Part shown: in pieces, positions 41,096 to 41,935 of the stretch
Layout: each line of letters begins with the position of its first letter
How positions within the stretch are numbered: position 1 is the first letter of the stretch
Virus record (IMG/VR): IMGVR_UViG_2511231131_000008
Length of the DNA: 46,763 nt
Reading direction: 5' to 3' (one strand)
Origin: a virus
Lineage: Duplodnaviria; Heunggongvirae; Uroviricota; Caudoviricetes
Notes under the pieces: model-generated
What the model was told of the DNA's origin: nothing
The model's database searches: none
The model's input: the letters and a program-made list of their open reading frames with translations, nothing else
Translations under genes and position numbers: made by a program

Positions 41096-41107
41096 ATCTG
41101 GATATCC
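41096..41107. repeat. ATCTGGATATCC site (contains palindrome GGATATCC), inverted copy of 41662-41673
   Basis: Exact 12-bp inverted repeat pair bracketing the antisense-oriented gene 41122-41637. Confidence 0.6.
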
Positions 41108-41121
41108 ATAACAGTAAAAAT

Positions 41122-41637
41122 CTACAGATTGCCGTTCAGTTTTCTGGCCAACTCTTCAATAGATGGAGGTGATACGTAATCCGGATTTTTATTCATAAGA
41201 AACTGATTTTCACAGTACAGGCACCTGCTTTTATGAAAAAATTCATATTCTCTAACCGGGAATGGCTGAAGTATCGATACTATCTTTTGTCCAAAACATT
41301 TTGGACAAAGATGCATGATTATGCTGCCGCCGTTCACGGTTACCTCCTTCGAGTACACAAAAGTTCCCGACTCAAGTTGGCTAAGGATATAACCTTCCGT
41401 CTGAGCCTCAAAGTTTTCAAATTCTGCAATTTTAGCTTTGAGAGAAGCATTTATTTCTTGATAAGTGCCCACCAGCTCAACGAGAGACACGCATTCGCGC
41501 TGAATAGATGCAAGCTTTGAGTTCAGTTCACCAATAGCCGCATTTACTTCAGCTTGAGTTTTTGCCTCGTTCATTAGTTTTGCAATCTGGGCGGTTTCAC
41601 GAATAGCCGTCATTGCTGCCGTTAATTCAGCGATCAC
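41122..41637 (-). CDS. Hypothetical coiled-coil/zinc-ribbon protein encoded antisense to the early-left operon
   Basis: Start placed at GTG 41637 (AAGAG Shine-Dalgarno) or ATG 41613; helical N-terminal half, C-terminal CPKC...CLYC motif; the 249-aa track ORF extension is unlikely to be coding. Confidence 0.5.
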   Translation of the reverse strand: MIAELTAAMTAIRETAQIAKLMNEAKTQAEVNAAIGELNSKLASIQRECVSLVELVGTYQEINASLKAKIAEFENFEAQTEGYILSQLESGTFVYSKEVTVNGGSIIMHLCPKCFGQKIVSILQPFPVREYEFFHKSRCLYCENQFLMNKNPDYVSPPSIEELARKLNGNL

Positions 41638-41661
41638 ATTCAATACTCTTATTGTTGTTGG

Positions 41662-41673
41662 GGATATCCAGAT
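41662..41673. repeat. GGATATCCAGAT site, inverted copy of 41096-41107
   Basis: Lies in the 5' region of the antisense gene, between two direct repeats TTGTTGTTGGGGA (41652-41664 and 41685-41697). Confidence 0.6.
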
Positions 41674-41935
41674 TAACAAGATCCTTGTTGTTGGGGAATA
41701 ACGGGGACCACCTCGCCTGACGTGGTAAAAAGCAGGCACACAACACGAAAGCACACGGCGAGGTTGCTGGTTCATAGATAGCCTATCGTTAAATTTTCGT
41801 CGACCGTGCGCTTCCGGTTGTGGCAGTCCGCGAAATGGCGCGGCGGTAAGTATGGCTGGGGTTTCCTCCATTGCTCCAGAAAATGCACCGGGTTGTCAGG
41901 TTGACCATACGCTTAAGTGACAACCCCGCTGCAAC

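What the first reader, a model, noticed from the sequence alone, without database searches (positions are those of the whole stretch)
41096..41698. Antisense-oriented coiled-coil/zinc-ribbon gene bracketed by inverted GGATATCC sites inside the dicB-type operon
A roughly 170-aa ORF (helical N-terminal half, C-terminal CPKC...CLYC zinc ribbon) lies on the opposite strand between the ydfA-like gene and the dicF-like sRNA, where Qin has small same-strand genes. It is bracketed by an exact 12-bp inverted repeat (ATCTGGATATCC at 41096-41107 and its inverse at 41662-41673), and its 5' region carries two direct repeats TTGTTGTTGGGGA. This looks like an independently regulated moron, and a self-regulated exclusion or defence-type gene is a reasonable guess. 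I cannot assign a family from memory.
Basis: partly seen in the sequence, partly recalled or inferred. Interest (0 to 1): 0.55.

Follow-up and report, generated by a model that had tools for sequence, protein, structure and literature searches.

The report
Rip1-type phage-defence gene in sas cassette
The antisense gene is a relative of Rip1, a recently described prophage protein that kills infected cells by forming a pore around phage ring proteins, and the repeats around it belong to a conserved control region, first known from the sieB gene of phages P22 and lambda, that many prophage accessory genes share.

Summary
A 171-aa ORF (41122-41637, minus strand, GTG start) has a helical N-terminal half and a CPKC...CLYC C-terminal domain. 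It is flanked by a 13-bp exact inverted repeat, and two 13-bp direct repeats lie upstream.

The protein belongs to the Rip1 (ring-interacting pore 1) antiphage family. A family profile matches PDB 9oox (HK446 Rip1 with T6 small terminase) at E 6e-24. The AlphaFold model's only significant Foldseek hit is the same entry. Rip1 genes in HK446, HK620 and Pseudomonas JBD30 also lie antisense inside a phage operon.

The repeats are not private to this gene. The ~100-nt upstream region is homologous to the sieB leader of P22 and lambda, whose complement is the published sas antisense RNA. The two direct repeats correspond to the two sas stem-loops. This leader precedes roughly 25-30 unrelated cargo families. 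It is 85% conserved among cassettes whose third codon positions are 49% identical.

The inverted repeat belongs to the frame of one leader subtype and also flanks non-Rip1 cargo. That argues against self-regulation and against transposon ends.

Verdict: a new member of a known defence family in a known but under-described regulatory cassette. Activity, transcription start and antisense control are inferred.

The parts
41122..41637 (-). Rip1-family gene, 171 aa, GTG start. N-terminal amphipathic helices, then a C-terminal beta domain with four cysteines (CPKC...CLYC).
   Evidence: start and invariant Cys; PDB 9oox Rip1: phmmer E 3.6e-7, profile E 5.7e-24; model and Foldseek; 79, 80; hydrophobic moment 0.40-0.44 in the helices
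41638..41737 (-). Conserved non-coding leader of the sieB/sas type, from GCCTG to the start codon.
   Evidence: conserved across genera and cargos; 85% identity against 49% at third codon positions; homology to the complement of published P22 sas RNA; present upstream of lambda sieB
41708..41737 (-). Invariant 5' element GCCTGCTTTTTACCACGTCAGGCGAGGTGG. It can form GCCUG/CAGGC and CCAC/GUGG stems. In single-hairpin leaders the same element coincides with a -35 to extended -10 promoter-like match.
   Evidence: 103 of 121 viral-contig matches carry the full element; GCCUG/CAGGC stem invariant in 25 of 25; TTnACC-N16-TGgTATnCT: the bin holding this position collected 47 matches among 86 unique leaders, some leaders scoring twice; the window lacks that -10
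41685..41697 (-). Direct repeat 1 (TCCCCAACAACAA on the coding strand). It forms the loop and arm of the first stem-loop and is -35-like (TTCCCC) for a weak downstream promoter match.
41652..41664 (-). Direct repeat 2 (TCCCCAACAACAA), immediately upstream of the Shine-Dalgarno-like AAGAG.
41662..41674 (-). Upstream arm of the inverted repeat (AATCTGGATATCC on the coding strand). It lies between the two direct repeats and overlaps the -10-like TAATCT.
41095..41107 (-). Downstream arm of the inverted repeat (GGATATCCAGATT on the coding strand), 15 nt after the stop codon. It extends to 41120 at 81% complementarity.
41085..41101 (-). 3' frame motif CCAGATTGTTAAAGAGC, which marks the end of the cassette. 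Most relatives continue with an intrinsic terminator (AAGCGTCC..GGGCGCTTTTTT) that is missing here.
41085..41745 (-). The whole mobile cassette, as shared at 93.6% identity with phage PhiR29_1 in a different context.
   Evidence: empty-site comparison with Tritos
41628..41757 (+). Predicted sas-like antisense RNA region on the strand of the dicB operon. It would form two stem-loops carrying the UUGUUGUUGGGGA repeats and a 3' GCCUG..CAGGC hairpin. Its production is inferred, not shown.
   Evidence: published P22 sas sequence; same predicted architecture for the window, L009, HK446 and P22 sas; antisense strand folds better: -12.1 against -5.6 kcal/mol
40855..41007 (+). Left neighbour: DUF1391 (ydfA-like) gene of the leftward-type early operon.
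42186..42374 (+). Right neighbour: dicB.

Best explanation
The ORF encodes a member of the Rip1 (ring-interacting pore 1) family. By analogy with the characterised Rip1 proteins, it is made in the lysogen and is harmless on its own. When a superinfecting phage produces its oligomeric ring proteins (small terminase or portal), Rip1 assembles around the ring into a membrane pore that kills the cell before progeny are completed. This activity is inferred from homology.

The gene is the cargo of a portable cassette inserted antisense into the prophage's dicB-type early operon. The cassette's ~100-nt upstream region is homologous to the sieB leader of P22 and lambda, whose complement is the sas antisense RNA.

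The most likely logic has three steps:
- The cassette's own weak promoter and weak ribosome-binding site (GTG start, AAGAG) give low expression in the lysogen.
- When the early operon fires, on induction or from a related superinfecting phage, transcription across the cassette yields a structured antisense RNA.
- That RNA pairs with the leader and Shine-Dalgarno region and shuts off the defence protein, sparing the phage's own development.

The GGATATCC inverted repeat is part of the frame of one leader subtype. The 3' UTR carries a ~13-25-nt copy of the sas-strand sequence, so it is complementary to the cassette's own leader. Its role is not established. Pairing of the mRNA's 5' and 3' ends, or processing of the antisense transcript, are the options I favour.
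For: Rip1 membership:
- phmmer against the PDB gives E 3.6e-7 to 9oox 'Rip1'. A profile of 28 homologues gives E 5.7e-24 over nearly the full length.
- hhalign against Pseudomonas JBD30 gp30 gives 99.3% probability.
- The AlphaFold2 model has pLDDT 90.9. Its only significant Foldseek PDB hits are 9oox_M and 9oox_L, E 5e-7, probability 1.0, TM 0.72 normalised to the target; the next hit has E 0.1.
- Ten residues besides the initiator Met are invariant, among them the four Cys and the I of the SILQ stretch. The N-terminal helices are amphipathic.
- The Rip1 mechanism is taken from the review PMC13434031, which cites Patel et al. 2026, Nature 651:1060.

Family habit of lying antisense inside a phage operon: HK446 gp37 between N and cIII, HK620 hkaP, JBD30 gp30 between the small and large terminase genes, and closer homologues next to cI, cro or xis.

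Leader:
- It is conserved across genera at 85%, against 64% for the CDS and 49% for third codon positions. Leader identity exceeds third-position identity in 90 of 91 pairs.
- The 5' element is shared with P22 sas, lambda sieB and HK446 rip1.
- It precedes about 30 sequence clusters of downstream ORFs, a few of them doubtful short calls.
- Hairpin stems differ in sequence between subtypes yet stay paired. Cognate hairpins fold at -6.7/-8.7 kcal/mol (sense/antisense) against -4.6/-6.1 for chimeras.
- The predicted antisense architecture matches that of published sas.

Inverted repeat: it is present in all 25 distinct cassettes examined that carry this leader subtype and the 3' motif, with duplexes of -20 to -32 kcal/mol (z -1.8 to -5.8). 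These include cassettes with other cargo.

Slot: at least six cargo families occupy the same DUF1391|dicB slot behind the same junction.
Against: - No experiment bears on this locus.
- Identity to the characterised Rip1 proteins is only 24-31%, so trigger specificity and even activity could differ.
- The primary Rip1 paper could not be read. The mechanism comes from a review.
- The consensus scan finds no sigma-70 promoter on either strand of 40500-42300. The window lacks the -10 that single-hairpin leaders have on the conserved element, and the alternative (TTCCCC-N17-TAATCT) scores 6 of 12 (hexamer count by eye). The transcription start is therefore unknown.
- The sense leader of the window folds no better than shuffles (z 0.13), and the antisense fold has z -0.26.
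- RNAalifold on a MAFFT alignment recovers only the invariant GCCUG/CAGGC stem, with no covariation term. My covariation evidence comes from a home-made chimera test.
- Production of a sas-like RNA here is inferred from P22 only.
- No Esc-like inhibitor is evident.
- Variant positions in the two arms of the inverted repeat are not compensated.
Confidence: 0.72

Rival explanations
1. The GGATATCC palindromes and the direct repeats are operators for a DNA-binding regulator (the zinc-ribbon protein itself or a prophage repressor) that loops the DNA and controls the gene.
For: - GGATATCC is a perfect palindrome and is over-represented in the window: 4 copies against 0.56 expected.
- The upstream copy overlaps the best -10-like hexamer, a typical operator position.
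- The sites are conserved across genera.
- Variant positions in the two arms are not compensated, as expected if each arm is read separately.
Against: - The same leader and 3' arm flank unrelated cargo, namely clusters 5 and 17, so the cargo protein cannot be the regulator.
- The cassettes sit in prophages with different immunity regions, so no single prophage repressor fits.
- The palindrome is broken in several loci, while indel variants such as L017 (UUGGGGAUA-CAGAUU) and L036 (GGGGA-CCAGAUU) keep long complementarity to the leader.
- The protein's fold matches Rip1, with no significant match to any other solved protein, DNA-binding ones included.
Confidence: 0.1
2. The inverted repeats are the terminal repeats of a small non-autonomous mobile element, or recombinase sites, that move the gene between prophages.
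For: - The cassette is found with sharp borders in at least four prophage contexts.
- One arm lies 10 bp from the left border.
- A 26-nt imperfect inverted repeat is of the size of transposon ends or invertase sites.
Against: - The right arm is 71 bp inside the right border.
- Comparison with the empty site in Tritos shows no target-site duplication. There is only a short shared A(C/T)AAC at the right junction.
- No transposase or invertase gene lies inside the cassette, and I did not look for one nearby.
- Cargo exchange happens behind an identical junction and the conserved leader, which fits homologous recombination at conserved flanks.
- The equally mobile P22, lambda and HK446 type cassettes have no such repeat.
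Confidence: 0.06
3. The conserved upstream region is only a portable promoter plus ribosome-binding site. No antisense RNA regulation operates here, and the hairpins and repeats are by-products of promoter and SD constraints: the -10 TATCCT is the complement of the SD AGGATA.
For: - The position bin that holds a -35 / extended -10 match lying exactly on the invariant element collected 47 matches among 86 unique leaders.
- The core of the hairpin (UCC/GGA) follows from the -10 and SD sequences.
- The thermodynamic signal for the window's leader is nil.
Against: - Stems extend well beyond UCC/GGA with subtype-specific sequences, and cognate arms pair better than chimeras.
- Two-hairpin leaders such as this one, and those of P22 and lambda, keep the element although the -10 is gone.
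- In P22 the complement of this very region is an abundant, experimentally characterised antisense RNA.
- G-U pairs favour the antisense strand in the window subtype.
Confidence: 0.2
4. The repeats are chance matches and the ORF is a decaying or non-functional prophage remnant.
For: - A single 13-bp inverted repeat within 600 bp is expected about 0.4 times per window of this size (my arithmetic).
- The window's cassette has lost the usual terminator.
Against: - Both repeats recur in more than 20 cassettes from several genera.
- The ORF is intact and full length, with all family-invariant residues.
- Its 90% cluster has hundreds of members.
- It is 100% identical in several O55:H7 genomes, and the 1.8-kb region holding it is about 96% identical in O157:H7 genomes.
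Confidence: 0.02

Closest known systems
Rip1 (ring-interacting pore 1): Escherichia phage HK446 gp37 (PDB 9oox, with T6 small terminase) and the Pseudomonas aeruginosa prophage protein at the JBD30 gp30 position (Patel et al. 2026, Nature 651:1060)
   Same: Similar size (171 against 164 aa). Helical amphipathic N-terminal half and a C-terminal beta domain with four conserved Cys, plus the SILQ stretch. Profile E 5.7e-24 and a Foldseek match. Prophage-encoded single gene on the strand opposite to the surrounding operon. HK446 rip1 also sits behind the sas/sieB-type leader.
   Different: Only 24-31% identity. The slot differs: the dicB-type operon between ydfA-like and dicB, against N|cIII in HK446 and small|large terminase in JBD30. 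The leader subtype differs (CCCCAACAAC repeats instead of CCCCTACAG). There is an extra 3' arm complementary to the leader. The C-terminal tail (150-171) is absent from HK446 Rip1. Trigger and activity are untested.
sieB with its sas antisense RNA in phages P22 and lambda (Ranade & Poteete 1993, Genes Dev 7:1498)
   Same: The same conserved 5' element and the same layout: two stem-loops with a repeated loop sequence ahead of the SD. The gene lies antisense to the leftward early operon. The cargo is a prophage-expressed abortive-infection or exclusion function.
   Different: The cargo protein is unrelated: SieB is a membrane protein, cluster 1. The repeat sequence differs. No Esc-type internal product is evident. 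P22 and lambda cassettes lack the leader/3'-UTR inverted repeat. Overall leader identity to P22 is 57%.
HK620 hkaP (annotated 'putative superinfection exclusion protein')
   Same: A Rip1-family protein, 28.8% identical by tblastn, at the sieB position, antisense, behind the sas-type leader.
   Different: Different clade, leader subtype and slot. No functional data that I could find.
Lambdoid 'morons' in general (for example lambda bor, HK97 gp15)
   Same: An autonomous accessory cassette inserted between genes of an operon, thought to be expressed from the prophage.
   Different: Here the promoter/leader and the 3' end form a conserved, reusable frame shared by many cargos. I am not aware that this has been described for morons in general; that statement rests on my own knowledge.

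Membership tests
Rip1 (ring-interacting pore 1) antiphage family | Significant full-length sequence similarity to characterised Rip1 | tested here: met
   phmmer E 3.6e-7. Profile E 5.7e-24, positions 6-152 against chain residues 16-160. hhalign 99.3% to JBD30 gp30.
Rip1 (ring-interacting pore 1) antiphage family | Fold: N-terminal amphipathic helices plus a C-terminal ring-contacting domain | tested here: met
   AlphaFold2 pLDDT 90.9. Foldseek to 9oox_M: E 5.4e-7, probability 1.0, TM 0.72 normalised to the target (0.56 to the query); the next hit has E 0.1. Hydrophobic moment 0.40-0.44 in residues 7-54.
Rip1 (ring-interacting pore 1) antiphage family | Conserved four-cysteine motif and SILQ stretch | tested here: met
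   C111, C114, C139, C142 and I122 are invariant across the window protein, HK446, HK620, JBD30 and distant homologues.
Rip1 (ring-interacting pore 1) antiphage family | Single gene in a prophage, not toxic alone, expressed from the lysogen | tested here: inconclusive
   Prophage context and opposite-strand placement are shown. Expression and lack of toxicity cannot be tested here.
Rip1 (ring-interacting pore 1) antiphage family | Assembles around oligomeric small terminase or portal rings and forms a membrane pore that aborts infection | not testable with these tools
   Known only from the review of Patel et al. 2026. Needs phage assays, escape mutants, and biochemistry or cryo-EM.
sieB/sas-type leader (antisense-RNA-controlled moron cassette) | Sequence homology to the P22 sieB leader, i.e. 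the complement of sas RNA | tested here: met
   The 5' element is 28 of 32 identical (counted by eye on the alignment) and overall identity is 57% with the same order of parts. The element is invariant in 103 of 121 viral-contig matches and present upstream of lambda sieB.
sieB/sas-type leader (antisense-RNA-controlled moron cassette) | Two stem-loops carrying a repeated sequence, followed by a 3' hairpin, on the antisense strand | tested here: met
   Predicted folds of the window, L009, HK446 and published P22 sas share this layout. Stems vary between subtypes but stay paired. Caveat: the energy z-score for the window is -0.26.
sieB/sas-type leader (antisense-RNA-controlled moron cassette) | Gene lies antisense to the early lytic operon, so that lytic transcription reads the antisense strand | tested here: met
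   Here DUF1391 -> [cassette] -> dicB are all on the + strand and the cassette is on the - strand. The same holds for lambda, HK446 and HK620. A rough ORF-strand survey puts the downstream flank on the opposite strand in 55 of 73 cassettes (crude).
sieB/sas-type leader (antisense-RNA-controlled moron cassette) | A discrete antisense RNA is made and switches translation of the cargo | not testable with these tools
   Shown for P22 only. No promoter for it is detectable on the + strand here.
Transposon / MITE-like element | Inverted repeats at the very ends of the mobile segment, and a target-site duplication | tested here: not met
   The right arm is 71 bp inside the border. There is no duplication at the junctions when compared with the Tritos empty site and with PhiR29_1.
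DicF sRNA (Rfam RF00039), for the neighbouring 'dicF-like' segment | Match to the DicF covariance model | tested here: not met
   No DicF hit even at E<=10. The alignment with Tritos shows the annotated DicF segment replaced by diverged sequence, while the flanks are about 95% identical.

The most novel reading that the evidence does not exclude
The conserved frame around this gene is a general, portable, antisense-gated expression cassette for prophage accessory and defence genes in Enterobacteriaceae. It has three parts:
- a promoter/leader whose complement encodes a sas-like antisense RNA, so the cargo is on in the lysogen and is switched off when the surrounding lytic operon is transcribed;
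- interchangeable cargo, about 30 clusters of downstream ORFs, among them Rip1 and SieB;
- in the CCCCAACAAC subtype, a 3' UTR copy of the antisense sequence that pairs with the cassette's own leader, either closing the mRNA 5'-3' or creating an RNase III site in the antisense transcript.

The conserved 5' element would also serve as the recombination linker by which cargos are swapped in a fixed slot. If this is right, the element could be used as a marker to find new prophage defence genes.
Probability: 0.4. Interest if true: 0.7.

Novelty: new member of a known kind. Interest (0 to 1): 0.5.

Why it matters
- It gives a name and a testable mechanism (Rip1-type pore formation triggered by phage ring proteins) to a protein annotated as hypothetical. 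That protein is present in prophages of O55:H7 and O157:H7 E. coli and in many other Enterobacteriaceae.
That module is unannotated, absent from Rfam, and detectable in about half of complete E. coli genomes.
- The module precedes dozens of unrelated small prophage genes, including the structurally characterised HK446 Rip1.
- This suggests a common answer to how a prophage avoids being killed by its own abortive-infection gene when it is induced.
- It also offers a sequence tag for finding further prophage-expressed defence or exclusion genes.

Tried and rejected
- Pfam, NCBIfam and PADLOC (2023) gave nothing significant. PHROGs gave phrog_1244, 'unknown function'.
- I first used the ATG at 41613 as the start. 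The homologue alignment shows the GTG at 41637 is the start.
- I considered that the conserved upstream region might be coding, because the frame is open to 41871 in the window. In-frame stops in L012 and L013 and a 1-nt indel in L007 reject this.
- RNAalifold on a MAFFT alignment of 25 leaders returned only the invariant GCCUG/CAGGC stem. The variable hairpins are out of register in a sequence alignment, so I used per-sequence folds and a chimera test instead.
- RNAduplex on the full leader against 110 nt of 3' flank was uninformative: long gapped duplexes and weak z-scores. Exact reverse-complement matches and short-segment duplexes replaced it.
- CsrA-type GGA hairpins and sigma-54, sigma-E or sigma-32 promoters were considered by eye and dropped, because the motifs are not conserved between subtypes.
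- The search for a dedicated promoter for the antisense RNA on the + strand found nothing consistent.
- The strand-of-neighbours survey is crude. It mis-scores the known dicB contexts and carries little weight.
- The primary papers (Patel et al. 2026; Ranade & Poteete 1993) are not held. Searches for a preprint or for hkaP or sieB-promoter literature found nothing.
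Full report
**1. What is in the sequence.**

The window is identical to a lambdoid prophage of E. coli O55:H7 CB9615. RefSeq annotates the region in this order:
- cro-like gene, minus strand
- LexA-family repressor (39873-40589, +)
- DUF1391/ydfA-like gene (40855-41007, +)
- a 'hypothetical protein' on the opposite strand (41122-41637)
- dicB (42186-42374, +)
- DUF1482 gene
- an 823-aa exonuclease
- excisionase

The ORF starts at the GTG at 41637 and encodes 171 aa. 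The N-terminus MIAEL..AAM is conserved in 28 homologues. Relatives carry in-frame stops just upstream.

- The inverted repeat is exact over 13 bp (41095-41107 and 41662-41674) and extends to 26 nt at 81%.
- TTGTTGTTGGGGA occurs at 41652-41664 and 41685-41697 and nowhere else in the window, even with two mismatches.

Taken alone, the inverted repeat is only marginally improbable. By my arithmetic about 0.4 such pairs are expected per window. Its significance comes from conservation (sections 3 and 5).

**2. The protein is a Rip1 homologue.**

Pfam, NCBIfam and PADLOC give nothing significant, and PHROGs gives phrog_1244 of unknown function. The large protein collection returns 109 relatives, all unnamed, in Escherichia, Salmonella, Citrobacter, Klebsiella, Enterobacter, Edwardsiella, Arsenophonus and others.

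The evidence for Rip1 membership is as follows:
- Sequence against the PDB: chain 9oox_L, 'ring interacting pore 1 (Rip1)', is hit at E 3.6e-7 with the single sequence and at E 5.7e-24 with a profile of the homologues, over almost the whole length.
- Structure: an AlphaFold2 model (pLDDT 90.9) has two long helices (3-23, 28-79) and a beta domain (84-150). Foldseek against the PDB finds 9oox_M and 9oox_L, titled 'Escherichia phage HK446 Rip1 in complex with the Enterobacteria phage T6 small terminase', at E 5e-7, probability 1.0 and target-normalised TM 0.72. Nothing else scores below E 0.1.
- Conserved residues: aligned with HK446 gp37, HK620 HkaP, Pseudomonas JBD30 gp30 and distant relatives, the invariant residues are Q46, L66, Y83, V94, Y95, C111, C114, I122, C139 and C142.
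- Profile comparison: hhalign against JBD30 gp30 gives 99.3% probability.
- Amphipathicity: the helices have a hydrophobic moment of 0.40-0.44.
- Family size: 3353 representatives of 50% clusters at E<=1e-3.

The mechanism of Rip1 is taken from a 2026 review (PMC13434031), which cites Patel et al., Nature 651:1060. According to that review:
- Rip1 is a prophage protein that is not toxic on its own.
- Phage escape mutants map to portal (Pseudomonas phages) or small terminase (E. coli phages).
- Twelve Rip1 monomers ring an 11-mer of small terminase.
- The N-terminal amphipathic helices form a pore that permeabilises membranes and causes premature death of the infected cell.

I could not read the primary paper.

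**3. Placement is a family trait.**

Rip1-family genes lie antisense within phage operons in every context I examined:
- HK446 rip1 lies between N and the cIII/anti-restriction genes, on the strand opposite to the PL operon.
- HK620 hkaP is at the same position.
- JBD30 gp30 lies between the small and large terminase genes, again on the opposite strand.
- Closer homologues of the window protein lie between cro and the next rightward gene (Salmonella), between xis and cI (Citrobacter), or in the dicB context (E. coli). All are opposed to their neighbours.

The cassette itself is mobile. A 661-bp segment, 41085-41745, is 93.6% identical to a segment lying next to cI in phage PhiR29_1, in otherwise unrelated surroundings. 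Phage Tritos shows the dicB operon without it and with ydfB and ydfC present.

**4. The direct repeats belong to a sieB/sas-type leader.**

The ~100 nt upstream of the start codon are strikingly conserved in relatives from other genera whose proteins are only 45-70% identical. Among 14 cassettes, leader identity averages 85%, against 64% for the coding sequence and 49% for third codon positions. The leader exceeds third-position identity in 90 of 91 pairs.

HK446 rip1 and HK620 hkaP, which are 24-30% identical at protein level, share the first part of the leader almost exactly. They then carry their own pair of direct repeats, ACCCCTACAG twice.

Of these, 103 carry the full GCCTG..CCAC.TCAGGC...GTGG element, and nearly all are followed within 40-100 nt by a Shine-Dalgarno sequence and a start codon. 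The downstream ORFs fall into about 30 sequence clusters, a few of them doubtful short calls:
- Rip1-like proteins (27 distinct cassettes)
- SieB-like proteins (9 distinct cassettes)
- a variety of small membrane, zinc-ribbon and unknown proteins

The SieB version is the key. The reverse complement of the P22 sas antisense RNA, as printed in PMC13397905 Table 2, is this leader. Its identity to other copies is:
- 91% to the region upstream of lambda sieB
- 72% to the region upstream of HK446 rip1
- 57% to the window overall, with 28 of 32 identical in the 5' element (counted by eye on that alignment) and the same order of parts

In P22, sas pairs with the sieB mRNA. It switches translation so that the phage escapes its own exclusion system (Ranade & Poteete 1993, as summarised).

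The element is not in Rfam. It is detectable in 2766 of 5426 complete E. coli genomes, at up to six places each, always with no annotated feature under it.

**5. Structure and promoter.**

Leaders come in two layouts:
- One hairpin directly after GTGG, whose 3' arm carries the SD.
- Two tandem hairpins, each carrying the repeated sequence. The window, P22, lambda and HK446 have this layout.

The stems differ in sequence between subtypes but stay paired. Examples are GGAUCC/GGAUUC, UUCUCG/CGAGAA, UUCCU/AGGAA, AUCCUUAAAAU/GUUUUAAGGAU and UUCUUGG/CCAAGAA.

With 49 distinct 5' arms, cognate hairpins are more stable than chimeras: -6.7 against -4.6 kcal/mol on the sense strand, and -8.7 against -6.1 on the antisense strand. 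For the window subtype the antisense strand folds much better (-12.1 against -5.6), because several pairs are G-U only on that strand.

The predicted antisense folds of the window, a Citrobacter relative, HK446 and published P22 sas share one architecture: two stem-loops and a 3' GCCUG..CAGGC hairpin.

Caveats on the structure evidence:
- Energy z-scores for the window are near zero.
- RNAalifold on a sequence alignment sees only the invariant stem.

A simple scan shows that single-hairpin leaders carry TTnACC-N16-(TGg)TATnCT lying exactly on the invariant element. The position bin holding it collected 47 matches among 86 unique leaders, some leaders scoring twice. The invariant element is therefore probably a portable promoter with an extended -10.

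The window subtype lacks that -10. It has a weak alternative: TTCCCC (which is repeat 1), a 17-nt spacer, then TG-T-TAATCT. That would place the start near GGATATCC and repeat 2. The tool's own scan finds no promoter on either strand here. The transcription start is unresolved.

**6. The inverted repeat.**

An exact reverse-complement match of at least 11 nt between the leader and the 3' flank is found only in cassettes with the CCCCAACAAC-type leader. It is absent from the P22, lambda and HK446 type cassettes.

The 3' arm is followed by the frame motif GTTAAAGAGC and, in most loci, an intrinsic terminator. The window has lost that terminator at the 41085 border.

The same 3' frame follows unrelated cargo that uses this leader subtype: cluster 5 in L036, L065, L076 and L103, and cluster 17 in L070.

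In all 25 distinct cassettes of this subtype in which the 3' motif was found, the leader and the 3' arm can form a duplex of -20 to -32 kcal/mol, with z of -1.8 to -5.8 against shuffled arms. Indel variants keep complementarity by other segments, for example UUGGGGAUA-CAGAUU in L017 and GGGGA-CCAGAUU in L036. Single substitutions, however, are not compensated.

The arm is in effect a partial copy of the sas-strand sequence placed in the mRNA's 3' UTR. This has three consequences:
- It rules out regulation by the cargo protein.
- With the right arm 71 bp inside the border and no target duplication, it rules out transposon ends.
- It leaves RNA-level roles as the best guess: 5'-3' pairing of the mRNA, or a long-range duplex in the antisense transcript. 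Neither is shown.

**7. The slot.**

In dicB-carrying prophages, the interval between the DUF1391 gene and dicB holds at least six different cargo families: clusters 0, 2, 9, 16, 17 and 28. Most sit behind the junction GCCGTGCGCTTTCGTGTTGTGT|GCCTG or a close variant of it, together with the conserved leader element. This pattern is what exchange by recombination at conserved flanks would produce.

**8. Verdict.**

- The gene is a new member of the recently described Rip1 family.
- The repeats are real and conserved, and are explained as parts of a sieB/sas-type cassette frame.
- Shown: homology of protein and leader, fold, conservation, and context.
- Inferred: antiphage activity and its trigger, the promoter, production and action of an antisense RNA here, and any role of the inverted repeat.
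- The part I could not find described is how widely this leader is shared among cargos, including the structurally characterised Rip1, and the leader-complementary 3' arm of one subtype.

Noticed in passing
window 41935-41992 (+): The segment at the DicF position is not recognised by the Rfam DicF model even at E<=10. Aligned with phage Tritos, the flanks are about 95% identical, but the annotated DicF segment is replaced by a diverged sequence that keeps a terminator-like 3' end (..CCCGCCCTTTTT). It may be a DicF variant with a different targeting region.
   Followed up: partly
window 41995-42218 (+): A full-length but sub-threshold match to Rfam STnc100 (34 bits; gathering score 47; E 1e-5) covers the region upstream of dicB and runs into its start.
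   Followed up: no
window 41708-41737 (-) and loci L030-L149: The invariant element GCCTG..CCAC.TCAGGC...GTGG precedes about 30 sequence clusters of small prophage genes. It is detectable in 2766 of 5426 complete E. coli genomes and is never annotated. It could serve as a marker for prophage-expressed accessory or defence genes.
   Followed up: partly
loci L044, L063, L067, L072, L080, L146 (cluster 2); L118, L128 (cluster 9); L070 (cluster 17): The same DUF1391|dicB slot carries other cargos behind the same junction and leader. One example is a 106-aa predicted membrane protein (MSQPPINPLKNMKIDYWYK...). These are candidates for other exclusion or defence functions.
   Followed up: no
window 41005-41084 compared with L003 1589-2300: ydfB and ydfC, present in Tritos and Qin, are missing here. 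The sequence that follows ydfC in Tritos (GGTAATTAAGGAG..GCCGGA..TCCGGC hairpin) follows the ydfA-like stop codon directly in the window.
   Followed up: partly
window 40652-40680 (+): By eye, a leftward-promoter-like site TTGACT-N17-TACCTT flanked by repeats CTCTTGTAAC and CTCTTGTTAC lies just after the repressor gene's terminator. It is probably the early promoter and operators that drive the ydfA-dicB operon, and hence antisense transcription of the cassette. The consensus scan did not call it.
   Followed up: no
window 41613 (-), codon 9 of the ORF: An in-frame ATG at codon 9 is conserved as Met in most close homologues (MIAELSAAM..). In P22, sas shifts translation of sieB to an internal start (Esc). 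Whether a slightly shorter product is made here is unknown, and there is no obvious SD.
   Followed up: no
window 42654-45125 (+): The 823-aa 'exonuclease' downstream of dicB has YdfE N- and C-terminal domains and an Rv2179c-like 3'-5' exonuclease domain in its relatives. It also has a long acidic, low-complexity middle region.
   Followed up: no
locus L144: One viral contig carries two copies of the leader core. One precedes a Rip1-like gene. The second lacks the GCCTG stem (CTACTG instead).
   Followed up: no
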